Virus record (IMG/VR): IMGVR_UViG_648861009_000006
Length of the DNA: 20,685 nucleotides
Origin: a virus
Lineage: Duplodnaviria > Heunggongvirae > Uroviricota > Caudoviricetes
Reading direction: 5' to 3' (one strand)
Shown here piece by piece: positions 4,452 through 19,685 of this stretch. Numbering within the stretch: position 1 is the first letter of the stretch; each line of letters starts with the position of its first letter. The position numbers were made by a program, and so were the translations under genes. Under the pieces are notes generated by a model that searched no databases, was not told the origin of the DNA, and saw only the letters and a program-made list of their open reading frames with translations.

Positions 4452-4750
4452 NNNNNNNNNNNNNNNNNNNNNNNNNNNNNNNNNNNNNNNNNNNNNNNNN
4501 NNNNNNNNNNNNNNNNNNNNNNNNNNNNNNNNNNNNNNNNNNNNNNNNNNNNNNNNNNNNNNNNNNNNNNNNNNNNNNNNNNNNNNNNNNNNNNNNNNNN
4601 NNNNNNNNNNNNNNNNNNNNNNNNNNNNNNNNNNNNNNNNNNNNNNNNNNNNNNNNNNNNNNNNNNNNNNNNNNNNNNNNNNNNNNNNNNNNNNNNNNNN
4701 NNNNNNNNNNNNNNNNNNNNNNNNNNNNNNNNNNNNNNNNNNNNNNNNNN
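4452..4750. other. Run of 299 N (assembly gap)
   Basis: Unbroken N-run flanked by duplicated sequence. Confidence 0.95.
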
Positions 4751-5252: not shown

Positions 5253-5385
5253 TTTTTGGGACTCCTGGCTGATTAAGTATGTCGATAAGGCGTTTCCATC
5301 CGTCACGTAATTTACGGGTGATTCGTTCAAGTAAAGATTCGGAAGGGCAGCCAGCAACAGGCCACCCTGCAATGGCATATTGCAT
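5221..5385 (-). CDS. cIII: CIII (FtsH/HflB inhibitor), 54 aa
   Basis: Hand translation of the minus strand from ATG at 5383-5385 gives [54 protein letters not shown], matching lambda CIII. It is not in the ORF track because it is under 60 aa. Confidence 0.9.
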   Translation of the reverse strand: MQYAIAGWPVAGCPSESLLERITRKLRDGWKRLIDILNQPGVPKNGSNTYGYPD

Positions 5386-5457
5386 GGTGTGCTCCTTATT
5401 TATACATAACGAAAAACGCCTCGAGTGAAGCGTTATTGGTATGCGGTAACGCCGCGC

Positions 5458-9916: not shown

Positions 9917-11317
9917 ATGACAAATACAGCAAAAATACTCAACTTCGGCAGAGGTAACTTTGCCGGACAGGAGCGTAATGTGGCAGATCTCGATGATGGT
10001 TACGCCAGACTATCAAATATGCTGCTTGAGGCTTATTCGGGCGCAGATCTGACCAAGCGACAGTTTAAAGTGCTGCTTGCCATTCTGCGTAAAACCTATG
10101 GGTGGAATAAACCAATGGACAGAATCACCGATTCTCAACTTAGCGAGATTACAAAGTTACCTGTCAAACGGTGCAATGAAGCCAAGTTAGAACTCGTCAG
10201 AATGAATATTATCAAGCAGCAAGGCGGCATGTTTGGACCAAACAAAAACATCTCAGAATGGTGCATCCCTCAAAACGAGGGAAAATCCCCTAAAACGAGG
10301 GATAAAACATCCCTCAAATTGGGGGATTGCTATCCCTCAAAACAGGGGGACACAAAAGACACTATTACAAAAGAAAAAAGAAAAGATTATTCGTCCGAGA
10401 ATTCTGGCGAATCCTCTGACCAGCCAGGAAAACGNNNNNNNNNNNNNNNNNNNNNNNNNNNNNNNNNNNNNNNNNNNNNNNNNNNNNNNNNNNNNNNNNN
10501 NNNNNNNNNNNNNNNNNNNNNNNNNNNNNNNNNNNNNNNNNNNNNNNNNNNNNNNNNNNNNNNNNNNNNNNNNNNNNNNNNNNNNNNNNNNNNNNNNNNN
10601 NNNNNNNNNNNNNNNNNNNNNNNNNNNNNNNNNNNNNNNNNNNNNNNNNNNNNNNNNNNNNNNNNNNNNNNNNNNNNNNNNNNNNNNNNNNNNNNNNNNN
10701 NNNNNNNNNNNNNNNNNNNNNNNNNNNNNNNNNNNNNNNNNNNNNNNNNNNNNNNNNNNNNNNNNNNNNNNNNNNNNNNNNNNNNNNNNNNNNNNNNNNN
10801 NNNNNNNNNNNNNNNNNNNNNNNNNNNNNNNNNNNNNNNNNNNNNNNNNNNNNNNNNNNNNNNNNNNNNNNNNNNNNNNNNNNNNNNTTATTCGTCCGAG
10901 AATTCTGGCGAATCCTCTGACCAGCCAGAAAACGATCTTTCTGTGGTTAAACCGGATGCTGCAATTCAGAGCGGCAGTAAGTGGGGAACAGCAGAAGACC
11001 TGACCGCCGCAGAGTGGATGTTTGACATGGTGAAGACCATCGCGCCATCAGCCAGAAAACCGAATTTTGCTGGGTGGGCTAACGATATCCGCCTGATGCG
11101 TGAACGTGACGGACGTAACCACCGCGATATGTGTGTGCTTTTCCGCTGGGCCTGCCAGGACAACTTCTGGTCCGGTAACGTGCTGAGTCCGGCCAAACTC
11201 CGCGACAAGTGGACCCAGCTCGAAATCAACCGTAACAAGCAACAGGCTGGCGTGACAGCCGGAAAACCAAAACTCGACCTGACAAACACTGACTGGATTT
11301 ACGGGGTGGATCTATGA
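9917..11317 (+). CDS. O: Replication initiator O, interrupted by a 453-N gap with about 45 bp duplicated on both sides
   Basis: The N-terminal part MTNTAKILNFGRGNFAGQERNVADLDDGYARLSNMLLEAYSGADLTKRQFKVLLAILRKTYGWNKPMDRITDSQLSEITKLPVKRCNEAKLELVRMNIIKQQGGMFGPNKNISEWCIPQNEGKSPKTRDKTSLKL... and the C-terminal part ...ENDLSVVKPDAAIQSGSKWGTAEDLTAAEWMFDMVKTIAPSARKPNFAGWANDIRLMRERDGRNHRDMCVLFRWACQDNFWSGNVLSPAKLRDKWTQLEINRNKQQAGVT... both match lambda O. YSSENSGESSDQP is present on both sides of the gap. Confidence 0.85.
   Translation: MTNTAKILNFGRGNFAGQERNVADLDDGYARLSNMLLEAYSGADLTKRQFKVLLAILRKTYGWNKPMDRITDSQLSEITKLPVKRCNEAKLELVRMNIIKQQGGMFGPNKNISEWCIPQNEGKSPKTRDKTSLKLGDCYPSKQGDTKDTITKEKRKDYSSENSGESSDQPGKXXXXXXXXXXXXXXXXXXXXXXXXXXXXXXXXXXXXXXXXXXXXXXXXXXXXXXXXXXXXXXXXXXXXXXXXXXXXXXXXXXXXXXXXXXXXXXXXXXXXXXXXXXXXXXXXXXXXXXXXXXXXXXXXXXXXXXXXXXXXXXXXXXXXXXXXYSSENSGESSDQPENDLSVVKPDAAIQSGSKWGTAEDLTAAEWMFDMVKTIAPSARKPNFAGWANDIRLMRERDGRNHRDMCVLFRWACQDNFWSGNVLSPAKLRDKWTQLEINRNKQQAGVTAGKPKLDLTNTDWIYGVDL
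10260..10395 (+). repeat. ori-lambda: four iterons (ATCCCTCAAAACGAGGGA-like) plus the adjacent AT-rich region, inside O
   Basis: Four direct repeats: CATCCCTCAAAACGAGGGA, AAATCCCCTAAAACGAGGGA, TAAAACATCCCTCAAATTGGGGGA and TTGCTATCCCTCAAAACAGGGGGA. They are followed by an A-rich tract (ACAAAAGAAAAAAGAAAAGATTAT). Confidence 0.8.
10435..10887. other. Run of 453 N (assembly gap) inside O
   Basis: N-run. The about 45 bp before it (TTATTCGTCCGAGAATTCTGGCGAATCCTCTGACCAGCCAGgAAAACG) is repeated just after it with a 1-bp difference. Confidence 0.95.
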
Positions 11318-12375: not shown

Positions 12376-12816
12376 ATGAAAAAACTAACCTTTGAAATTC
12401 GATCTCCAGCACATCAGCAAAACGCTATTCACGCAGTACAGCAAATCCTTCCAGACCCAACCAAACCAATCGTAGTAACCATTCAGGAACGCAACCGCAG
12501 CTTAGACCAAAACAGGAAGCTATGGGCCTGCTTAGGTGACGTCTCTCGTCAGGTTGAATGGCATGGTCGCTGGCTGGATGCAGAAAGCTGGAAGTGTGTG
12601 TTTACCGCAGCATTAAAGCAGCAGGATGTTGTTCCTAACCTTGCCGGGAATGGCTTTGTGGTAATAGGCCAGTCAACCAGCAGGATGCGTGTAGGCGAAT
12701 TTGCGGAGCTATTAGAGCTTATACAGGCATTCGGTACAGAGCGTGGCGTTAAGTGGTCAGACGAAGCGAGACTGGCTCTGGAGTGGAAAGCGAGATGGGG
12801 AGATCGGGCTGCATGA
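12376..12816 (+). CDS. ninB: NinB recombination protein, 146 aa
   Basis: Translation MKKLTFEIRSPAHQQNAIHAVQQILPDPTKPIVVTIQERNRSLDQNRKLWACLGDVSRQVEWHGRWLDAESWKCVF... matches lambda NinB. Confidence 0.9.
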   Translation: MKKLTFEIRSPAHQQNAIHAVQQILPDPTKPIVVTIQERNRSLDQNRKLWACLGDVSRQVEWHGRWLDAESWKCVFTAALKQQDVVPNLAGNGFVVIGQSTSRMRVGEFAELLELIQAFGTERGVKWSDEARLALEWKARWGDRAA

Positions 12817-13233
12817 CTATCAAATCAAATACGCCAGCACACGACAAGGACTGCTGGCAAACGCCGCTTTGGCTTTTTGATGCACTGGATATTGAGTTTG
12901 GATTCTGGCTGGATTCGGCAGCGAGCGACAAAAATGCTCTGTGTGCTCACTGGCTAACTGAGGCCGACGACGCGCTCAATTCTGAGTGGGTAAGCCACGG
13001 TGCAATCTGGAATAACCCACCGTACAGCAATATCAGGCCGTGGGTGGAAAAAGCCGCTGAGCAGTGCATACAACAGCGACAGACGGTAGTTATGCTTGTG
13101 CCAGAGGATATGTCAGTCGGATGGTTCAGCAAGGCTCTGGAGAGTGTCGACGAAGTTCGCATTATCACTGATGGACGGATTAATTTTATCGAACCATCGA
13201 CAGGGCTGGAGAAGAAGGGGAAACCAGCAAAGG
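12813..13233 (+). CDS. Phage Dam-like DNA N6-adenine methyltransferase (5' part only; the remainder is lost in the N-gap)
   Basis: ATG at 12813 overlaps the ninB stop (ATGA). The translation contains the N6-adenine methyltransferase catalytic motif NPPY (AIWNNPPYSNIRPWVEKA) and resembles phage Dam-family enzymes. Confidence 0.75.
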
Positions 13234-14202
13234 NNNNNNNNNNNNNNNNNNNNNNNNNNNNNNNNNNNNNNNNNNNNNNNNNNNNNNNNNNNNNNNNNNN
13301 NNNNNNNNNNNNNNNNNNNNNNNNNNNNNNNNNNNNNNNNNNNNNNNNNNNNNNNNNNNNNNNNNNNNNNNNNNNNNNNNNNNNNNNNNNNNNNNNNNNN
13401 NNNNNNNNNNNNNNNNNNNNNNNNNNNNNNNNNNNNNNNNNNNNNNNNNNNNNNNNNNNNNNNNNNNNNNNNNNNNNNNNNNNNNNNNNNNNNNNNNNNN
13501 NNNNNNNNNNNNNNNNNNNNNNNNNNNNNNNNNNNNNNNNNNNNNNNNNNNNNNNNNNNNNNNNNNNNNNNNNNNNNNNNNNNNNNNNNNNNNNNNNNNN
13601 NNNNNNNNNNNNNNNNNNNNNNNNNNNNNNNNNNNNNNNNNNNNNNNNNNNNNNNNNNNNNNNNNNNNNNNNNNNNNNNNNNNNNNNNNNNNNNNNNNNN
13701 NNNNNNNNNNNNNNNNNNNNNNNNNNNNNNNNNNNNNNNNNNNNNNNNNNNNNNNNNNNNNNNNNNNNNNNNNNNNNNNNNNNNNNNNNNNNNNNNNNNN
13801 NNNNNNNNNNNNNNNNNNNNNNNNNNNNNNNNNNNNNNNNNNNNNNNNNNNNNNNNNNNNNNNNNNNNNNNNNNNNNNNNNNNNNNNNNNNNNNNNNNNN
13901 NNNNNNNNNNNNNNNNNNNNNNNNNNNNNNNNNNNNNNNNNNNNNNNNNNNNNNNNNNNNNNNNNNNNNNNNNNNNNNNNNNNNNNNNNNNNNNNNNNNN
14001 NNNNNNNNNNNNNNNNNNNNNNNNNNNNNNNNNNNNNNNNNNNNNNNNNNNNNNNNNNNNNNNNNNNNNNNNNNNNNNNNNNNNNNNNNNNNNNNNNNNN
14101 NNNNNNNNNNNNNNNNNNNNNNNNNNNNNNNNNNNNNNNNNNNNNNNNNNNNNNNNNNNNNNNNNNNNNNNNNNNNNNNNNNNNNNNNNNNNNNNNNNNN
14201 NN
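13234..14202. other. Run of 969 N (assembly gap) within the nin region
   Basis: N-run with no flanking duplication detected. It probably hides the methyltransferase 3' end and the ninE/ninF/ninG-rusA-type genes normally found before Q. Confidence 0.95.
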
Positions 14203-14262
14203 AACGTCTTCGCACCGCTGGGTCGCGTCTGCGCTTATATCGTTTCCCCGGTTCTGTTTTGA
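14203..14262 (+). other. 3' end (19 codons plus stop) of an unidentified gene emerging from the gap
   Basis: An open frame reads out of the N-run and ends ...NVFAPLGRVCAYIVSPVLF*. Identity unknown. Confidence 0.3.
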
Positions 14263-14403
14263 CCGATTACCGAATACTGAAGAATTACGCCAAAACACTG
14301 ACAGGAGCAGGAGTATGAAGTCAGAGATAACAATCAACTAATACTGTTTTGCTGATTTTTGCTTGTAATTGGCGTTCTGGTCTGATTTTTGTGGAGTAAG
14401 TTG

Positions 14404-14781
14404 ATGCGTGATATTCAGATGGTTCTTGAGCGTTGGGGAGCGTGGGCGGCTAATAATCATGAAGATGTGACCTGGTCGTCCATTGCCGCCGGTTTTAAGG
14501 GATTAATTCCTTCAAAAGTAAAATCTCGCCCGCAATGTTGTGACGATGACGCGATGATCATTTGCGGGTGCATGGCCCGTCTGAAAAATAACAACAGCGA
14601 TTTGCATGATTTGTTAGTGGACTATTATGTCGGCGGCATGACTTTTATGGCGCTTGCGCGTAAGCATGGTAGATCTGATTGTTGGATTGGCAGGATGCTC
14701 CAAAAAGCTGAGGGCGTAGTGGAGGGCATGCTGATGGTGTTGGATCTCAGATTGGAGATGGATGCTGATTGTTTGAGATAA
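14404..14781 (+). CDS. Q: Late-gene antiterminator Q (short Q of DLP12/phage-21/82 type, about 125 aa)
   Basis: Translation [34 protein letters not shown]...[16 protein letters not shown]... with GGAG RBS 8 nt upstream of ATG 14404. The listed ORF start at 14389 is a TTG. It is followed by a promoter-like region and a strong terminator. Confidence 0.8.
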
Positions 14782-14794
14782 TTAAAGGAAAAGT

Positions 14795-14850
14795 TGCTGT
14801 CTGGTTATCATTAGACTAATGTTTCAAATGTTAGAATCGCAACGTAGTTA
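14795..14850 (+). promoter_or_regulatory. Putative late promoter pR' / qut region
   Basis: Sigma70-like elements directly after Q, either TTGCTG-17 bp-TAATGT or TTAGAC-15 bp-TAGAAT. The exact hexamers are uncertain. Confidence 0.3.
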
Positions 14851-14880
14851 TGATCATATAACAGCTTGTTCCCTGATTTA

Positions 14881-14909
14881 GCCAGCCTCCCCAAAGGCTG
14901 GTTTTTTTT
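14881..14909 (+). terminator. tR'-like intrinsic terminator (target of Q antitermination)
   Basis: Stem CCAGCC / GGCTGG with loop TCCCCAAA, followed by T8, about 100 bp downstream of Q. Confidence 0.65.
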
Positions 14910-14937
14910 CTAATAAGTATCAATCCGGTTAGGTATT

Positions 14938-15462
14938 TTATTGTTTGACCCATAATAGTTCATTGACATTGAATCCCAATTTTTGAGCAGTACGCACATA
15001 GTCTGCTTTTACATTATCTGGAATAGTTGGAGTCCGTGCCAGAATCCATAGGTATTCTCTGTTCGGACCACTGACAAGAGCATACTTATACTCATCATCC
15101 AGTTTGATTACATTATAGCCACCATAGAAGGGGCCAAAAAACGAAACCTTCAACGCTGCAGTTGTATTATCTCCTGTAAAGTATGCTTTACCTTCGCTCT
15201 CGCTCCATTTGTTTTTCGTTGGGTCATATCCACGATTAAGTACACTAATCCCTCCGTCGTTCCGTTTCCCATAAGTGGCGCTGACCTGTTCCAGACCACG
15301 TTCAAATCGGTTCTCAAGCCGAGCTATTTCATACCATTTTCCGAGGTAGCGGTTGGTGTCAAAATTTGTAATCGGCTGCACACCTTTAGGTGGTGTCGGG
15401 GCCTTACATGCTATCAGAGTGAAAGAGAGTGCAATGCCAGTCAACACAGGCCATAACTTCAT
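14938..15462 (-). CDS. Blc-like bacterial lipocalin, outer-membrane lipoprotein, 174 aa
   Basis: Signal peptide with lipobox (LIAC), then NFDTNRYLGKWYEIARLENRFERGLEQVSATY...GKAYFTG...LKVSFFGPFYGGYNVI...YLWILARTP, closely resembling E. coli Blc. Confidence 0.85.
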   Translation of the reverse strand: MKLWPVLTGIALSFTLIACKAPTPPKGVQPITNFDTNRYLGKWYEIARLENRFERGLEQVSATYGKRNDGGISVLNRGYDPTKNKWSESEGKAYFTGDNTTAALKVSFFGPFYGGYNVIKLDDEYKYALVSGPNREYLWILARTPTIPDNVKADYVRTAQKLGFNVNELLWVKQ

Positions 15463-15653
15463 AATATATCCTGTACTTTTGATAGTTGAGAGTAAGTATT
15501 AAAGATAGATGATTACTACCGATCACCTAAAGAACTTTCCTACTATATTAGGAATAGTCCATAACAAAAAATTGTCAGTGATGACGGCAGAAAGGCAGTT
15601 TAGGTCGTGTACTACACTGTTAACCTGTTAATGAATTAGTCAAGGGGTAGGCA

Positions 15654-16613
15654 ATGATAAAAAAACCTGTCGTTGGGATCAGTGGTTGTTTGGCCGGTTC
15701 TTCTGTCCGTTTTGATGGTGGTCACAAAAGAGCTAGCTTTTTAATGGACAAATTACTGGAATGGGTAACATTCAAACCAGTATGTCCGGAAATGGCTATA
15801 GGGCTTCCAGTTCCGCGTCCTGCTCTACGTCTTGTTCGCTCGGCGCAAGGAAATATACGGATGTGTTTCAGCCACGACCAGAATGAGGATGTTACAGAGA
15901 AAATGACAGAGTTTAGTCGTTCTTATCTTGACAAATTAAAGGATGTATCGGGATTTGTGGTTTGTGCAAAATCTCCTAGCTGTGGTATGGAACGCGTGCG
16001 TGTATATGATGAAAATGGTAATCGTGGTCGTAAAGATGGAGTGGGACTATTTACGAGCACGTTGATGGAAAGGTTTTCCTGGCTACCGGTTGAAGAGGAT
16101 GGGCGACTACATGATCCAGTGCTTCGTGAAAACTTTGTTGAAAGAGTATTTGCTTTACATGAGCTCAATCATCTTTATAAAGCGAAATTATCAAGAAGGG
16201 AATTATTAGCTTTTCATAGCCGTTATAAGCTTCAGTTGTTGGCGCATAGCCAGGCCGGTTATAAAGAGATGGGGCCATTTGTGGCTGCAATACATGAGTG
16301 GGCAGACCTTGAATCATACTTTGAGGTGTATCGTGAGAAGCTGATGGCGATTCTCAGAAAACCTGCATCACGTAAAAATCACACGAATGTGCTGATGCAT
16401 ATACAGGGATATTTTAGTAACTGCTTAAATACACGTCAGCGTAAAGAGTTGAGCGATGTTATACTTAACTATCGAGCTGGCACGCTACCTCTTCTTGCGC
16501 CATTAACTTTGCTGAAGCATTACTTGGCAGAGTATCCTGATGATTATTTGCTTATACAGAATTACTTCCACCCCTATCCTGATGAACTGGCTCTAAGACT
16601 CTTGGTGAACTAG
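15654..16613 (+). CDS. DUF523 (TudS/YbgA-like, Cys-rich) plus DUF1722 fusion protein, 319 aa
   Basis: The N-terminal region has conserved cysteines (ISGCLAGSSVRFDGGHK, FKPVCPEM, VVCAKSPSCGMERV) typical of DUF523 Fe-S proteins (thiouracil desulfidase TudS family). The C-terminal region resembles YbgA/DUF1722. It is divergent from the lipocalin gene. Confidence 0.7.
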   Translation: MIKKPVVGISGCLAGSSVRFDGGHKRASFLMDKLLEWVTFKPVCPEMAIGLPVPRPALRLVRSAQGNIRMCFSHDQNEDVTEKMTEFSRSYLDKLKDVSGFVVCAKSPSCGMERVRVYDENGNRGRKDGVGLFTSTLMERFSWLPVEEDGRLHDPVLRENFVERVFALHELNHLYKAKLSRRELLAFHSRYKLQLLAHSQAGYKEMGPFVAAIHEWADLESYFEVYREKLMAILRKPASRKNHTNVLMHIQGYFSNCLNTRQRKELSDVILNYRAGTLPLLAPLTLLKHYLAEYPDDYLLIQNYFHPYPDELALRLLVN

Positions 16614-16922
16614 GCGTTTGGAATGCACCAACAAGATGATTTTCTCCTTAGAGAATGTTTACAATCGTAAAAACTTCACTATGATATCTATAGTTGTACA
16701 GTTTGTAAAAAAATTCGGTTCATGCTTAAGGTAATGTTAATATGTTAATTAATGATTAATAATCAAGCAAGCCAAAAATAGTTCTGTTTAATCTAGTATT
16801 ACATAAATATTTTAAAGAAAATATCAAAGTTCATGATGATATAATGAGATTTTTCTCATTGAAAATATGGCAATTTTAATATTTCCACCTATACTTACTT
16901 AACTCAAATCTAATTATGTCAG

Positions 16923-17663
16923 GTGGATGGTATGCCATGCATATGTTCTATCATTTTGGTTTTGAACTCGTTTGATATCCGGCTTGGTAAAGAAAAAATC
17001 TCTCTAAAAAAAGGAAGTGTTGTTGCTATAGAATACAATTTAAAAGTTTTCTTTTCTTCAAATAAAGATAATATAATGATCGTGGATATTGAAGAGAAAA
17101 CAGTTAATGACTTCTTTAAAAACAATACACTCTCACCTTTTTCTGTAAGAAGATTTTATTCAGCATACTTGATAGTAAACTGTACAGACTATTCATTGTT
17201 AAAGAACTTGATAGGTTGCTTGAATTGTGATGGTGAAACTACGGCTGTAGTTAAAAATTCAATATTATTTGCATGTCTTGCTATTTTATCCTCGGAAAAA
17301 ATGTTTCAGAGTTTTTTGTTTGGGTGTCTTAATAGTTTAGGAAGCAAAGTTAAGGCTATTATTCACTCGGACATATCTGCAGCATGGAGACTTTGTGATA
17401 TTTCTTCAAGACTATGTCTGAGTGAAAGTTTGTTAAAAAGAAAACTAAAACACGAAGGCTTATCATTTAGCAAATTAATTCTTGAAGAACGAATGGTGAT
17501 GGCTGAAAGGTTATTAAGCTACAATTTCTATCCTGTTGGGAAAGTTGCTAAAATATGTGGTTATGAAAGCGCGTCATATTTTATAAGTGTTTTCAGAAGA
17601 TATTTTGGTGTTCCCCCCCATGAATATTCATCAAGATTTTTTTTAGAAAAAGGCAAGATGTAA
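16923..17663 (+). CDS. AraC/XylS-family transcriptional regulator, 246 aa (AppY/GadX-like prophage regulator type)
   Basis: C-terminal AraC HTH signature (KICGYESASYFISVFRRYFGVPPHEY), very AT-rich codon usage, and a long AT-rich leader of about 300 bp. Confidence 0.8.
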   Translation: MDGMPCICSIILVLNSFDIRLGKEKISLKKGSVVAIEYNLKVFFSSNKDNIMIVDIEEKTVNDFFKNNTLSPFSVRRFYSAYLIVNCTDYSLLKNLIGCLNCDGETTAVVKNSILFACLAILSSEKMFQSFLFGCLNSLGSKVKAIIHSDISAAWRLCDISSRLCLSESLLKRKLKHEGLSFSKLILEERMVMAERLLSYNFYPVGKVAKICGYESASYFISVFRRYFGVPPHEYSSRFFLEKGKM

Positions 17664-17724
17664 CGTGATGCGTTTTGATGATTTTGTAATTTTCATATTT
17701 GATGATTATATGATGCTTTCAGCT

Positions 17725-17755
17725 ACGCCAGAATAATCGCTGGCGTTTTTCTTTT
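17725..17755 (+). terminator. Putative intrinsic terminator downstream of the AraC-family gene
   Basis: Stem ACGCCAG / CTGGCGT with an 8-nt loop, followed by TTTTTCTTTTC. Confidence 0.45.
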
Positions 17756-17830: not shown

Positions 17831-18046
17831 ATGAAATCCATGGACAAGTTAACAACGGGCATTGCCTACGGCACCTCTGCAGGCAGTGCTGGCTACTGGT
17901 TTTTACAGTGGCTTGATCAGGTCAGTCCGTCACAGTGGGCGGCGATTGGAGTGCTTGGAAGCCTTGTGTTGGGTTTTCTCACTTATCTGACAAACCTTTA
18001 TTTCAAGATTAAAGAAGATAAGCGTAAGGCTGCGAGAGGTGAATAA
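17831..18046 (+). CDS. S: Phage-21-type pinholin S (dual-start antiholin/holin), 71 aa
   Basis: [71 protein letters not shown] has two TM segments and the dual-start motif M-K-S-M, matching S21/EssD. Confidence 0.9.
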
Positions 18047-18543
18047 TGTCGCCATCATTACGCAAGGCTGTAGCAGCTGCTATTGGTGGTGGGGCTGTTG
18101 CCATAGCGTCTGTGCTCATCACTGGTCCGAGTGGTGACGATGGTCTGGAAGGTGTCAGCTACATACCATATAAAGATATTGTTGGTGTATGGACTGTATG
18201 TCACGGGCATACAGGAAAAGACATCATGCTCGGTAAAACGTATACCAAAGCAGAATGCAAAGCACTCTTGAATAAAGACCTTGCCACTGTCGCCAGACAA
18301 ATTAACCCGTACATCAAAGTCGATATACCGGAAACAACGCGCGGCGCTCTTTACTCATTCGTTTACAACGTGGGTGCTGGCAATTTCAGAACATCGACGC
18401 TTCTTCGCAAAATAAACCAGGGCGATATCAAAGGCGCATGTGATCAGTTACGTCGCTGGACATATGCTGGCGGTAAGCAATGGAAAGGTCTCATGACTCG
18501 TCGTGAGATTGAGCGTGAAATCTGTTTGTGGGGTCAGCAATGA
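18046..18543 (+). CDS. R: SAR endolysin (lysozyme R21/RrrD type), 165 aa
   Basis: N-terminal signal-anchor-release segment ([20 protein letters not shown]) followed by a lysozyme domain; the start overlaps the S stop. Confidence 0.9.
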
Positions 18544-19001
18544 ACAGAGTAACCGCGATTATCTCCGCTCTGGTTATCTGCATCATCGTCTGCCTGTCAT
18601 GGGCTGTTAATCATTACCGTGATAACGCCATTACCTACAAAGCCCAGCGCGACAAAAATGCCAGAGAACTGAAGCTGGCGAACGCGGCAATTACTGACAT
18701 GCAGATGCGTCAGCGTGATGTTGCTGCGCTCGATGCAAAATACACGAAGGAGTTAGCTGATGCGAAAGCTGAAAATGATGCTCTGCGTGATGATGTTGCC
18801 GCTGGTCGTCGTCGGTTGCACATCAAAGCAGTCTGTCAGTCAGTGCGTGAAGCCACCACCGCCTCCGGCGTGGATAATGCAGCCTCCCCCCGACTGGCAG
18901 ACACCGCTGAACGGGATTATTTCACCCTCAGAGAGAGGCTGATCACGATGCAAAAACAACTGGAAGGAACCCAGAAGTATATTAATGAGCAGTGCAGATA
19001 G
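18540..19001 (+). CDS. Rz: Rz i-spanin, 153 aa
   Basis: N-terminal TM segment followed by a coiled-coil-like periplasmic domain; ATG 18540 overlaps the R stop. Confidence 0.85.
18760..18942 (+). CDS. Rz1: Rz1 o-spanin lipoprotein, 60 aa, embedded in Rz in the +1 frame
   Basis: [20 protein letters not shown] lipoprotein signal followed by a proline-rich mature region ([18 protein letters not shown]), wholly inside Rz. Confidence 0.8.
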
Positions 19002-19032: not shown

Positions 19033-19326
19033 TTATTGTGAGCAATAGACACGCGCTTCCAGCGGAGTATAAATGCCTAAAGTAATAAAACCGAGCAATC
19101 CATTTACGAATGTTTGCTGGGTTTCTGTTTTAACAACATTTTCTGCGCCGCCACAAATTTTGGCTGCATCAACAGTTTTCTCCTGTCCAATTCCCGAAAC
19201 GAAGAAGTGATGGGTGATGGTTTCCTTTGGTGTTACTGCTGTCGGTTTGTTTCCAACAGTAAACGTCTGTTGAGCACATCCTGTAATAAGCATTGCCAGA
19301 GCGGCAGAAAACAACATTTTTTTCAT
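19033..19326 (-). CDS. bor: Bor lipoprotein (serum-resistance protein), 97 aa
   Basis: From the internal ATG: MKKMLFSAALAMLITGCAQQTFTVGNKPTAVTPKETITHHFFVSGIGQEKTVDAAKICGGAENVVKTETQQTFVNGLLGFITLGIYTPLEARVYCSQ, matching lambda Bor. Confidence 0.85.
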   Translation of the reverse strand: MKKMLFSAALAMLITGCAQQTFTVGNKPTAVTPKETITHHFFVSGIGQEKTVDAAKICGGAENVVKTETQQTFVNGLLGFITLGIYTPLEARVYCSQ

Positions 19327-19685
19327 CTTATTATCCTGCATTGTTAAAAACGGCAGAATCCTATGTGACAACAATTAAACGATAGTTAAATGGATTGATG
19401 AAAATTAAAACTATATAGGTGGATGCTCAGCCTATTGGAGGAGGGGGGCACTCAGAATCCTGTGGAATGAAATAAACCGCTCTTTCTGTCCATTACCCTT
19501 TTAGCTGCGCTGTATCGTCGCCGTATTCCCGCATTAACCATGACCGTAGCCCGACGGGGAATTCCTTCTGCGTGAGTGTGCGGGAATAATCAAAAACGAT
19601 GCACACCGGGTTTTACTGTGCTGACAGACGCAGGGTTACCCTCATAGTCGCTTTTCCGGTGCGATGGTGGAAGAAACCGGGATGT

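What the first reader, a model, noticed from the sequence alone, without database searches (positions are those of the whole stretch)
16614..17663. AraC-family regulator with a very AT-rich leader of about 300 bp (candidate H-NS-silenced prophage regulator)
The region 16620-16920 is extremely AT-rich, with long A/T tracts and TTAATTAAT-like motifs, and precedes an AT-rich AraC/XylS-family gene. Prophage-encoded AraC-like regulators of this type (AppY in DLP12 and the acid-resistance regulators of the GadX/YdeO group are established examples) can rewire host stress regulons. The leader is the kind of sequence bound by H-NS. The regulator has no obvious adjacent target operon other than the two neighbouring cargo genes.
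Basis: partly seen in the sequence, partly recalled or inferred. Interest (0 to 1): 0.45.

Follow-up and report, generated by a model that had tools for sequence, protein, structure and literature searches.

The report
Phage-borne PatE-like AraC regulator gene
This is an uncharacterised AraC-family regulator gene carried as cargo by lambda-like E. coli phages, a close cousin of known prophage regulators that switch on the host's acid-resistance genes, so it is a new member of a known kind.

Summary
Window 16614-16931 is a 318-bp intergenic stretch of 26.7% G+C. It is the most AT-rich stretch of the window (45.1% G+C outside three N-masked runs). It precedes a 243-aa ORF (ATG 16932 to stop 17663, 31% G+C) with a two-HTH AraC/XylS DNA-binding domain.

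The protein aligns end to end with the GadW/YdeO/AppY/PsrA/PatE subgroup. Its closest relative with a reported function is Sakai ECs_0287, which I infer to be PatE (53% overall, 72% in the DNA-binding domain, identical first recognition helix).

The gene has moron architecture in the slot between antiterminator Q and holin S of a DLP12/phage-21-like late region. A -10-like hexamer, ribosome-binding site and intrinsic terminator are conserved across clades, and dN/dS is 0.16-0.28. It travels with a Blc lipocalin and a TudS-DUF1722 gene. More distant relatives occupy the same slot without those two genes.

The cassette is 100% identical in cultured infant-gut lambda-like phages. The gene or a roughly 85% variant occurs in 699 of 5426 complete E. 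coli genomes.

H-NS silencing and control of the acid-fitness island are inferences from composition and homology. Neither was tested, and no H-NS nucleation motif was found. Verdict: real, ordinary in kind, uncharacterised in detail.

The parts
14389..14781 (+). Context: phage antiterminator Q (phage-21/DLP12 QuuD type) that drives late transcription through the cassette
   Evidence: Pfam Phage_antitermQ E=2.5e-51. RefSeq 'antiterminator Q family protein' in the identical locus.
14880..14903 (+). tR'-like intrinsic terminator just downstream of Q. On the other strand it also closes the convergent blc gene.
   Evidence: 9-bp stem plus T run. Conserved in the 85% clade. Its role as tR' is inferred from lambda biology.
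14938..15462 (-). Co-travelling cargo gene: Blc-type outer-membrane lipocalin
   Evidence: Pfam Lipocalin_2 E=2.2e-43. NCBIfam Blc subfamily 315 bits, above the 267 cutoff. Named as a moron of infant-gut lambdas in PMC6969025.
15654..16613 (+). Co-travelling cargo gene: 2-thiouracil-desulfurase (DUF523/TudS) plus DUF1722 fusion, 'YbgA family'
   Evidence: Pfam 2-thiour_desulf E=3.6e-40 and DUF1722 E=1.3e-40. No terminator-like site was predicted between it and the AraC gene.
16614..16931 (+). AT-rich upstream control region ('leader') of the regulator gene, 26.7% G+C
   Evidence: composition, rank. (homologous in four clades with conserved blocks). No Rfam match and no stable fold.
16658..16709 (.). 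Conserved distal block. On the + strand it holds a promoter-like TTTACA-16-TATGAT (16658-16685). It lies inside an imperfect palindrome with arms at 16658-16675 and 16692-16709, which also reads as a promoter-like site on the - strand.
   Evidence: 10 of 12 consensus matches on both strands. The 16658-16685 core is nearly invariant in four cassette clades and matched in 74 of 80 IMG/VR loci. Palindrome: I9. Absent upstream of the 62%, 54%, ECs_0287 and PsrA homologues.
16843..16860 (.). Inverted repeat AATGAGA-TTTT-TCTCATT just upstream of the proximal -35. Candidate operator.
   Evidence: Read from the sequence. The block AATGAGATTTT.CT.ATTG is conserved in four clades, but the repeat is perfect only in the window's clade. 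Function not tested.
16867..16895 (+). Proximal promoter-like site: ATGGCA-17-TATACT, with the -10 at 16890-16895, 36 nt before the ATG
   Evidence: 9 of 12. The -10 block TATACTT is conserved upstream of every family member aligned, including ECs_0287 and the 62% and 54% homologues; PsrA has TATAAT there. Found in 74 of 80 IMG/VR loci.
16921..16926 (+). Shine-Dalgarno AGGTGG, 5 nt before ATG 16932
   Evidence: Sequence. CAGGTGGAT is conserved in four clades and, with small changes, in the distant homologues.
16932..17663 (+). AraC/XylS-family regulator, 243 aa. N-terminal beta-rich domain (about 1-125), linker helices, two-HTH DNA-binding domain (about 136-235).
   Evidence: dN/dS 0.16-0.28. 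PHROG 1450 full length, 'unknown function'.
17725..17746 (+). Intrinsic terminator of the regulator gene (stem ACGCCAG...CTGGCGT followed by a T run), ahead of the holin
   Evidence: The stem is invariant in the cassette clades and kept, with changes, in the 54% homologue's locus. Matched in 66 of 80 IMG/VR loci.
17831..18046 (+). Context: phage-21-type holin S, first lysis gene downstream
   Evidence: Pfam Phage_holin_2_1 E=3e-35.

Best explanation
The gene encodes a functional AraC/XylS transcription factor of the small enterobacterial GadW/YdeO/AppY/PsrA/PatE subgroup. It is carried as a lysogenic-conversion 'moron' in the Q-to-holin slot of lambda-like E. coli phages.

Shown:
- The two-HTH DNA-binding domain.
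- Full-length homology to that subgroup.
- Purifying selection on the gene.
- Conserved promoter-like elements, ribosome-binding site and terminator.
- The phage location and the wide distribution.

Inferred:
- In the lysogen the gene is transcribed from its own sigma-70 promoter. The best candidate has its -10 TATACT at 16890-16895. A second, clade-specific candidate lies at 16658-16685.
- The roughly 1-kb stretch of about 70% A+T (control region plus gene) is coated by H-NS, possibly with Hha. Expression would then be low until a stress or stationary-phase signal relieves silencing, as reported for appY.
- The protein binds AT-rich sites at host promoters. The likeliest targets are gadE and hdeAB of the acid-fitness island, which PatE, PsrB and AppY are reported to activate. 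This would raise acid resistance and indirectly change other regulons.
- The gene is co-oriented with the late operon, between Q and the lysis genes. It must therefore also be transcribed by Q-modified RNA polymerase after prophage induction.
For: Domain and family:
- Pfam HTH_18 and HTH_AraC are above their gathering scores.
- The best PDB sequence match is the GadX DNA-binding domain (E=5.4e-21).
- The AF2 model has mean pLDDT 86.9. It superposes on the GadX DNA-binding domain at 1.1 A with 42% identity, and matches Rns, CsvR and ToxT over the full length at E about 1e-10.
- The NCBIfam YdeO model aligns 1-235 to 1-233 of 253 positions.
- BLASTP identities: 53% ECs_0287, 40% PsrA, 35% GadW, 30% AppY, 28% YdeO, each over about 235 residues.
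- The DNA-binding domain is 72% identical to ECs_0287. The first recognition helix SESLLKRKLK is identical. K169 aligns with AppY K170, whose K170E change abolishes DNA binding (PMC10057817).

Reported functions of relatives:
- PatE and PsrB activate gadE and hdeAB. PsrA and PsrB raise GadE and YhiF (PMC10877973).
- AppY binds gadE directly, and its expression depends on H-NS among other regulators (PMC10057817).

Gene is functional:
- dN/dS is 0.16-0.28.
- 110 genomes carry it at 99% identity or more.

Moron architecture:
- Conserved -10, ribosome-binding site and terminator.
- The slot holds nmpC instead in K-12 DLP12.

Location:
- The order Q+ blc- ybgA+ AraC+ holin+ is seen in 73 of the 74 IMG/VR loci that have upstream flank.
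- Homologues at 62% and 54% lie directly between other Q types and the holin.
- PsrA also lies downstream of a Q gene.

Composition.
Against: - No experiment exists on this protein or locus.
- ECs_0287 = PatE is my inference. It is the only AraC-type gene in Sakai Sp1, and I equated Sp1 with the island (OI-8) that carries z0321 from memory, not from a tool result. The original PatE and PsrB papers were not available.
- The N-terminal domain is only 37% identical to ECs_0287, so the input signal may differ.
- 53% overall identity does not guarantee the same regulon.
- No match within 2 mismatches to the H-NS nucleation motif lies in 16500-17700.
- Promoter-like matches in the scanned region are no more frequent than in shuffles (12 found against 11.4 expected). 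The promoter calls therefore rest on conservation alone.
- Some copies are frameshifted.
Confidence: 0.6

Rival explanations
1. The regulator is a local, cassette-specific switch. Its main job is to control the two co-travelling cargo genes (blc lipocalin and TudS-DUF1722), and perhaps itself, rather than host regulons.
For: The three genes are strictly linked in the three close clades: 73 of 74 IMG/VR loci with upstream flank, plus L001-L003, L011 and L012. dS is similar for the three genes against L003 (0.20-0.34), so they diverged as one unit. No terminator-like site was predicted between ybgA and the regulator gene.
Against: Homologues at 62% and 54% identity, ECs_0287 and PsrA occur without blc or ybgA. 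No conserved shared motif links the blc-ybgA intergenic region to the regulator's upstream region. The only shared 19-mer (15618 and 16735) is not conserved in the other clades. The relatives with reported functions act on host genes in trans.
Confidence: 0.15
2. The protein is a phage life-cycle regulator. Sitting between Q and the lysis genes, it would tune late-gene expression, lysis timing or superinfection rather than host physiology.
For: It lies inside the late transcription unit, immediately upstream of holin S. Family members keep this position next to three different Q families. A Rac prophage regulator is reported to control both phage and host operons (title and abstract of PMC11879457 as listed; not an AraC protein).
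Against: Related phages with the same Q and holin lack the gene. K-12 DLP12 has nmpC in the slot, so it is dispensable for the phage cycle. Its own terminator insulates the lysis genes from it. All homologues with a reported function regulate host stress or virulence genes.
Confidence: 0.1
3. The gene is silent baggage: permanently repressed xenogeneic DNA with no present function, on its way to decay.
For: Extreme A+T content. Some copies are frameshifted or carry IS elements close by. Protein divergence is faster than in the neighbours (dN/dS 0.25-0.28 against 0.07-0.11 for the L003 and L012 comparisons).
Against: dN/dS is well below 1 in every comparison that could be computed (0.16-0.28). 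The ORF is intact and at least 99% identical in 110 genomes and 100% identical in 10 of the 11 matching cultured-phage records. The regulatory elements and terminator are conserved across clades.
Confidence: 0.1

Closest known systems
PatE (z0321, prophage island OI-8 of E. coli O157:H7 EDL933; taken here to be Sakai ECs_0287 in prophage Sp1)
   Same: Prophage-encoded and of about the same length (247 against 243 aa). Collinear over the full length at 53% identity. The DNA-binding domain is 72% identical and the first recognition helix is identical. A -10-like TATACTT and the ribosome-binding site are shared upstream, and remnants of a post-Q terminator lie upstream of ECs_0287. PatE is reported to activate gadB, gadC, gadE and hdeAB (PMC10877973).
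   Different: The N-terminal domain is only 37% identical. ECs_0287 sits at the end of a degraded prophage, without blc, ybgA or an adjacent Q or holin. Its gene and upstream region are less AT-rich (35% and 39% G+C). The equivalence ECs_0287 = PatE is inferred, not verified.
PsrA and PsrB (z1789 / ECs_1087 and z2104; prophage secretion regulators of O157:H7)
   Same: AraC-like, about 237 aa, 40% identity over the full length. PsrA lies downstream of a Q antiterminator in lambdoid prophage Sp4. Both are reported to raise GadE and YhiF, and PsrB to bind the hdeA and gadE promoters (PMC10877973). psrA expression follows HnrS, a phage sRNA reported to counter H-NS/Hha silencing (PMC13502914).
   Different: More distant (DNA-binding domain 56%, N-terminal domain 26%). 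PsrA is associated with effector loci, pch regulators and tRNA genes, not with blc and ybgA. Its gene is 42% G+C.
AppY (DLP12 prophage, E. coli K-12)
   Same: Prophage AraC regulator with the same domain layout and the MxxxCSV N-terminus. Composition is almost the same: gene 31.7% and upstream region 27.6% G+C. Its expression depends on H-NS among other regulators, and it binds gadE directly (PMC10057817). DNA-binding residue K170 is conserved as K169 here.
   Different: Only 30% identity. appY lies at the far right end of DLP12 beside ompT, not in the Q-to-holin slot. In DLP12-type prophages that carry this cassette, the cassette replaces nmpC.
GadW, GadX and YdeO (chromosomal acid-resistance regulators)
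   Same: Full-length homology to GadW (35%) and YdeO (28%). The GadX DNA-binding domain is the best solved-structure match.
   Different: The scores are far below the NCBIfam equivalog cutoffs (YdeO 112.7 against 348 bits; GadX 98.7 against 500 bits), so this is not an orthologue of either. GadW, GadX and YdeO are core or island genes, not phage cargo.
Rns, CsvR and ToxT (virulence AraC regulators with fatty-acid-binding N-terminal domains)
   Same: Best full-length structural matches (Foldseek E about 1e-10 to 1e-7). They share the two-domain layout.
   Different: Only 17-22% identity, with a different relative domain orientation (rmsd about 15 A, TM 0.40-0.44). The N-terminal domain here is about 35-40 residues shorter: HMMER aligns query residue 22 with ToxT residue 58. 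Ligand-pocket residues were not compared.

Membership tests
AraC/XylS family of transcription factors | C-terminal DNA-binding domain of about 100 aa with two helix-turn-helix motifs | tested here: met
   Pfam HTH_18 56.8 bits (cutoff 33.6) and HTH_AraC 47.6 bits (cutoff 26.6). The model superposes on the GadX DNA-binding domain at 1.1 A.
GadW/YdeO/AppY/PsrA/PatE subgroup | Collinear full-length homology of proteins about 240-250 aa long, including the short N-terminal domain that begins MxxxCSVI | tested here: met
   BLASTP alignments cover residues 1-235 with each member. The alignment has an invariant Cys5. The NCBIfam YdeO model is matched at 1-233 of 253 positions. Only 9 clusters reach E<1e-30 among 1.84 billion representatives.
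Orthologue (equivalog) of YdeO or GadX | Score above the curated NCBIfam equivalog cutoff | tested here: not met
   YdeO 112.7 bits against 348. GadX 98.7 bits against 500.
PatE/PsrB-type acid-resistance activators | Binds and activates the hdeA (-132 to -45) and gadE promoters and raises acid survival | not testable with these tools
   Only homology is available: DNA-binding domain 72% identical to ECs_0287 with an identical first recognition helix. Functions of the relatives come from PMC10877973.
Phage moron (autonomous cargo transcription unit) | Lies between conserved phage modules and is absent from close relatives | tested here: met
   Lies between Q and holin S. K-12 DLP12 has nmpC at the same place.
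Phage moron (autonomous cargo transcription unit) | Own promoter and own terminator | tested here: inconclusive
   The terminator at 17725-17746 is predicted and conserved. Promoters are consensus matches supported only by conservation. No TSS data.
Phage moron (autonomous cargo transcription unit) | Base composition distinct from the surrounding phage genes | tested here: met
   31% and 27% G+C against 43-49% for the flanking genes.
H-NS-silenced (xenogeneic) locus | A+T content well above the genome average over several hundred bp, with frequent TpA steps and A/T tracts | tested here: met
   About 1050 bp at 27-31% G+C. It is the lowest-G+C stretch in the window, with 11.6 TpA per 100 nt.
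H-NS-silenced (xenogeneic) locus | High-affinity nucleation motif (TCGATAAATT-like; motif recalled from Lang et al. 2007) | tested here: not met
   No match within 2 mismatches in 16500-17700, although 22 such matches occur elsewhere in the window.
H-NS-silenced (xenogeneic) locus | H-NS occupancy in vivo and derepression in hns or hha mutants | not testable with these tools
   The locus is absent from K-12. None of the 60 listed carrier strains is a model strain that I know to have H-NS ChIP data. No paper on this locus was found.

The most novel reading that the evidence does not exclude
The lipocalin, TudS-DUF1722 and AraC genes may form one co-evolving sensory and effector cassette. In this reading the regulator's divergent, Rns/ToxT-like N-terminal domain senses a lipid or fatty-acid (or pH) cue related to what the Blc lipocalin handles. 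Because the gene also lies inside the Q-dependent late operon, prophage induction in a subpopulation would additionally pulse the regulator. Phage state and a gut chemical cue would then both feed into the host acid-resistance regulon.
Probability: 0.1. Interest if true: 0.55.

Novelty: new member of a known kind. Interest (0 to 1): 0.3.

Why it matters
Prophage AraC regulators (AppY, PatE, PsrA, PsrB) are a documented route by which phages plug into the E. coli acid-resistance and virulence circuitry. All the studied cases come from K-12 or O157:H7.

This paralogue, together with a roughly 85% variant, is present in about 13% of complete E. coli genomes. Its two cargo neighbours occur in about 21%. 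The cassette rides on inducible, cultured lambda-like phages from infant guts.

It is annotated only as 'helix-turn-helix domain-containing protein' in RefSeq and as PHROG 'unknown function'. If it does activate gadE and hdeAB, lysogeny by common gut coliphages would change acid survival in many commensal and extraintestinal lineages.

The locus is also a compact test case for H-NS control of a phage moron placed inside the late operon. The expected answer is conventional, so the scientific surprise is modest.

Tried and rejected
- Structured RNA or riboswitch in the leader: rejected. Rfam found nothing at gathering scores or at E<=1 in 16614-16931. The fold of 16692-16950 is no better than shuffles (z = 0.58). 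The middle of the leader carries clade-specific indels.
- Small ORFs in the leader (38 aa at 16618-16734, plus 20-23 aa ORFs): not pursued. Gene callers placed short ORFs in the same intergenic region of L011 and L012, but the region's indels argue against a conserved peptide. Their frames were not compared.
- H-NS nucleation motif search: no hit in the locus.
- Shared operator between the blc-ybgA intergenic region and the regulator's upstream region: one 19-nt TGTTAA-repeat pair (15618 and 16735) is not conserved in the other clades, so I treat it as chance.
- AppY's 8-bp motif ATGSCWGM (PMC10057817): by eye only a 6-of-8 match at the proximal -35 (ATGGCAAT, 16867-16874). Not conserved in the 85% clade. 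Not counted as evidence.
- Original PatE and PsrB papers (PMC3416394, PMC4288888) and the EDL933 record NC_002655.2 were not available. The link from ECs_0287 to PatE therefore rests on the review and on gene content of Sp1.
- Search for a well-studied carrier strain with H-NS ChIP data: none recognised among the 60 listed carriers.
- Promoter scan statistics: 12 sites against 11.4 expected, so consensus matches alone carry no weight.
- Ligand-pocket comparison with Rns (H20, R75) and ToxT was not possible because no residue-level structural alignment was available.
Full report
**1. What is in the sequence**

The window is part of a lambda-like E. coli prophage or phage. Around the finding the gene order is as follows.
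- Antiterminator Q (14389-14781, +; Pfam Phage_antitermQ E=2.5e-51).
- A terminator-like hairpin (14880-14903).
- A Blc-type lipocalin (14938-15462, -).
- A TudS(DUF523)-DUF1722 fusion, 'YbgA family' (15654-16613, +).
- A 318-bp gap.
- An AraC-type ORF ending at 17663.
- A second terminator-like hairpin (17725-17746).
- Phage-21-type holin (17831), lysozyme RrrD (18046) and Rz (18528).

The identical region in E. coli 2017C-4173W12 is annotated the same way by RefSeq. There the regulator is WP_001112170.1, 'helix-turn-helix domain-containing protein', and starts at the ATG that corresponds to window 16932.

That start is supported in two ways. AGGTGG lies 5 nt upstream. The N-terminus MPCICSII aligns with the MxxxCSVI N-termini of GadW, YdeO, AppY, PsrA and ECs_0287.

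**2. Check of the observation**

The window contains three N-masked runs (4452-4750, 10435-10887, 13234-14202). With these excluded it is 45.1% G+C.

The intergenic stretch 16614-16931 is 26.7% G+C and the CDS is 31.3%. Only 1.07% of all 318-bp windows are as AT-rich as the leader. Every 318-bp window at or below 30% G+C falls within 16528-17369. TpA steps are about twice as frequent as in the rest of the window, and the quoted TTAATTAAT-type runs are present.

The DNA-binding domain is real: HTH_18 E=2.9e-15 and HTH_AraC E=1.7e-12, both above Pfam's gathering scores.

**3. What the protein is**

Sequence searches place it in a narrow subgroup.
- The NCBIfam YdeO model aligns over the whole protein (1-235 against 1-233 of 253 positions). 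The score is 112.7 bits against a cutoff of 348, so it is YdeO-like in layout but not YdeO. GadX, HilD and HilC follow on the C-terminal half only.
- Among solved structures the best sequence match is the GadX DNA-binding domain (E=5.4e-21). CsvR, Rns and ToxT follow.
- An AlphaFold2 model built on ten homologues has mean pLDDT 86.9. It shows a beta-rich N-terminal domain (about 1-82), helices, and a seven-helix C-terminal half.
- Foldseek matches Rns, CsvR and ToxT over the full length (E about 1e-10 to 1e-7). Domain orientation differs (rmsd about 15 A).
- It matches the GadX DNA-binding domain at 1.1 A with 42% identity.

I took reference proteins from the K-12 and Sakai genomes. BLASTP identities are in the table below.

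| Reference | Identity | Aligned columns |
|---|---|---|
| Sakai ECs_0287 | 53% | 235 |
| PsrA (ECs_1087, read as a 237-aa ORF) | 40% | 235 |
| GadW | 35% | 236 |
| AppY | 30% | 235 |
| YdeO | 28% | 236 |
| GadX (C-terminal part only) | 39% | 129 |

By domain, identity to ECs_0287 is 72% in the DNA-binding domain and 37% in the N-terminal domain. The first recognition helix (SESLLKRKLK) is identical. K169 aligns with AppY K170, whose K170E change abolishes DNA binding (PMC10057817).

An exhaustive HMMER scan of 1.84 billion representatives found only 9 clusters at E<1e-30. The full-length family is therefore small.

I take ECs_0287 to be PatE. The review PMC10877973 places patE (z0321) on island OI-8. 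ECs_0287 is the only AraC-type gene of Sakai prophage Sp1. That Sp1 corresponds to OI-8 is from my memory, not from a tool result. This identification is an inference, because the primary papers and the EDL933 record were unavailable.

**4. Is the gene alive?**

The table gives pairwise dN/dS against the window's copy. For the 54% homologue dS was saturated and no ratio could be computed.

| Gene | Comparison | dN/dS |
|---|---|---|
| Regulator | 83% clades (L003, L012) | 0.25-0.28 |
| Regulator | 75% clade (L011) | 0.24 |
| Regulator | 62% homologue (L009) | 0.19 |
| Regulator | ECs_0287 | 0.16 |
| ybgA | L003, L012, L011 | 0.10-0.14 |
| blc | L003, L012 | 0.07-0.08 |

The regulator is under purifying selection, somewhat relaxed relative to its neighbours. 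In the L003 comparison dS is similar for the three genes (0.20-0.34), so the cassette diverged as a unit. A few copies are frameshifted.

**5. Anatomy of the 'leader'**

I aligned the upstream region from four cassette clades (100%, about 83%, about 83% from phage IdasGreatGrand, and about 75%). The region is homologous throughout, with conserved blocks separated by clade-specific indels. The conserved blocks are these.
- (a) TTTACAATCGTAAAAACT.C.CTATGAT at 16658-16685. This is a 10-of-12 sigma-70 consensus match. It lies inside an imperfect palindrome, 16658-16709, which also reads as a promoter on the other strand.
- (b) AATGAGATTTT.CT.ATTG. In the window this forms the perfect inverted repeat AATGAGA-TTTT-TCTCATT (16843-16860).
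- (c) TTTCCACCTATACTTAC, which carries a -10-like TATACT at 16890-16895.
- (d) CAGGTGGAT followed by the ATG.

I then added the upstream regions of the 62% and 54% homologues, ECs_0287 and PsrA. Only the proximal -10 block, the ribosome-binding site and the ATG remain alignable.

The family-wide promoter candidate is therefore the proximal one. It would give a 5' UTR of roughly 30 nt. The distal element is specific to the cassette clades and would give a UTR of about 240 nt.

That putative long UTR has no stable predicted structure (z = 0.58) and no Rfam match. Promoter-like matches are no more frequent here than in shuffles, so these calls rest on conservation only.

Downstream, the hairpin ACGCCAG...CTGGCGT followed by a T run is invariant in the cassette clades. 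It is retained, with changes in the stem, in the 54% homologue's locus.

In 80 IMG/VR contigs the distal promoter, the proximal TATACTT and the terminator were found in 74, 74 and 66 loci respectively. The window's clade has the shortest and most AT-rich version of the region: 318 bp at 26.7% G+C, against 351 bp at 32% and 406 bp at 31%.

**6. Genomic setting and distribution**

Distribution in complete E. coli genomes and in phage collections:
- The exact locus (99% identity or more) is in 110 of 5426 complete E. coli genomes, at varied chromosomal positions.
- A roughly 85% variant is in a further 575 or so genomes.
- The blc-ybgA pair is in 1150 genomes. Part of the excess is probably the 75% clade of the regulator, which megablast would miss but which sits next to ybgA.
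- The whole cassette is at least 99.8% identical (100% in most records) in eleven cultured lambda-like phage records (1H12, Lambda_2E9, Lambda_ev087 and others).
- I attribute these phage records to the infant-gut coliphage study PMC6969025 on the basis of their names; the paper's text does not mention 1H12.
- That paper lists blc as a moron present in more than half of its lambdas but never mentions the AraC gene.
- In IMG/VR the order Q+ blc- ybgA+ AraC+ holin+ holds in 73 of the 74 loci that have upstream flank.

Comparison with related prophages:
- In one genome the cassette sits in DLP12 proper, with ybcK, ybcL, ybcM and ybcN upstream. K-12 DLP12 carries nmpC at that place. The cassette is therefore accessory.
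- The 62% and 54% homologues lie directly between a Q gene of a different Pfam family (PF03589, PF06323) and the holin, without blc or ybgA.
- PsrA also lies a short way downstream of a Q gene.
- The region upstream of ECs_0287 retains a degenerate copy of the post-Q terminator seen in the 54% locus.

The regulator gene with its proximal promoter and terminator thus behaves as an independent module that recurrently occupies the Q-to-holin slot, co-oriented with late transcription.

**7. How it most likely works**

Shown:
- It is a two-domain AraC/XylS protein of the GadW/YdeO/AppY/PsrA/PatE subgroup.
- The gene is under purifying selection.
- It has a conserved proximal -10, ribosome-binding site and terminator.
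- It is phage cargo in the late region.

Inferred from established lambda biology: all late genes are transcribed from the promoter just downstream of Q by Q-modified, terminator-resistant polymerase. This gene lies between Q and S on the same strand. It must therefore be transcribed after induction, while its own promoter and terminator let it be expressed in the lysogen without expressing the holin.

Inferred from composition and family precedent: the roughly 1 kb at about 70% A+T is a good H-NS substrate.
- The appY locus has nearly the same composition, and appY expression depends on H-NS among other regulators (PMC10057817).
- psrA and gadE levels follow a phage sRNA reported to counteract H-NS/Hha silencing (PMC13502914).

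Inferred from homology: the likeliest targets are gadE and hdeAB.
- PatE and PsrB are reported to activate them through the same hdeA -132 to -45 element (PMC10877973).
- AppY binds gadE.
- The strongly conserved DNA-binding domain, paired with a divergent N-terminal domain, suggests similar DNA targets but a different input signal.

**8. Weak points**

- Nothing here measures H-NS binding. No TCGATAAATT-like nucleation site (within 2 mismatches) lies in the locus.
- Target prediction from 53% identity is a prior, not a result.
- The strict linkage with blc and ybgA in the close clades keeps open a local-regulation role. Against it, there is no conserved shared motif, and more distant family members lack these neighbours.

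**9. Verdict**

It is plausible but untested on H-NS. It needs correcting on the nature of the 'leader'.

The regulator is an uncharacterised but common paralogue of a known class of prophage AraC regulators: a new member of a known kind. Interest is moderate to low. It matters mainly because the gene is widespread, sits on active gut phages, and is easy to test.

Noticed in passing
window 4452-4750, 10435-10887, 13234-14202: Three runs of N (1721 bases in all) mask parts of the window. They create artefactual long ORFs in mechanical ORF lists (for example 9917-11317 and 12753-14318) and distort composition statistics unless excluded.
   Followed up: partly
window 16658-16709: A 52-bp imperfect palindrome (arms TTTACAATCGTAAAAACT and AGTTGTACAGTTTGTAAA, 72% complementary). 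Its left arm and centre, including the promoter-like TTTACA-16-TATGAT, are nearly invariant in four diverged cassette clades, while the surrounding sequence varies. It reads as face-to-face promoter-like sites or as a dimer-binding site. Its function is unknown.
   Followed up: partly
window 14938-16613 and related loci L001-L003, L011, L012: A Blc-type lipocalin and a TudS(DUF523)-DUF1722 fusion gene are divergently arranged and travel with the regulator. The pair occurs in 1150 of 5426 complete E. coli genomes, often with IS3-family insertions in or beside ybgA. What a thiouracil-desulfurase-like enzyme does as phage cargo is unexplained.
   Followed up: partly
window 16932-17663 compared with 14938-16613: The regulator gene diverges faster than its two neighbours at a similar dS (about 82% amino-acid identity against 93-97% between the window and the 83% clade; dN/dS 0.25-0.28 against 0.07-0.11). 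Most of the change is in the N-terminal domain (74% against 90% identity for the DNA-binding domain).
   Followed up: partly
window 14753-14912: A promoter-like site overlaps the Q stop codon (TGGAGA-18-GATAAT with an extended TG). It is followed about 100 nt later by a strong hairpin and T run (14880-14903) that faces the 3' end of the convergent blc gene. This looks like the late promoter with its first terminator, doubling as a bidirectional terminator. Two weak sub-threshold Rfam sRNA hits overlap it.
   Followed up: partly
window 5340-5398 (-): Rfam Lambda_thermo (lambda cIII thermoregulator element), 88.5 bits, E=9.8e-21.
   Followed up: no
window 18760-18942 (+) within 18528-19001: A 60-aa ORF with a lipoprotein-like signal and a proline-rich stretch lies embedded out of frame in the Rz gene, as expected for an Rz1 (RzoD-type) spanin component.
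   Followed up: no
window 19033-19374 (-): A Bor/Iss-type serum-survival lipoprotein gene lies downstream of the lysis genes. It is annotated iss in the identical RefSeq locus. It is another moron in the same prophage.
   Followed up: no
L005 28677-29390 (Sakai ECs_1087, psrA): The deposited annotation starts PsrA at 28803 (195 aa). An upstream ATG at 28677 gives a 237-aa protein whose N-terminus (MVVVCSVI) aligns with the rest of the family, so the annotated start is probably too short.
   Followed up: partly
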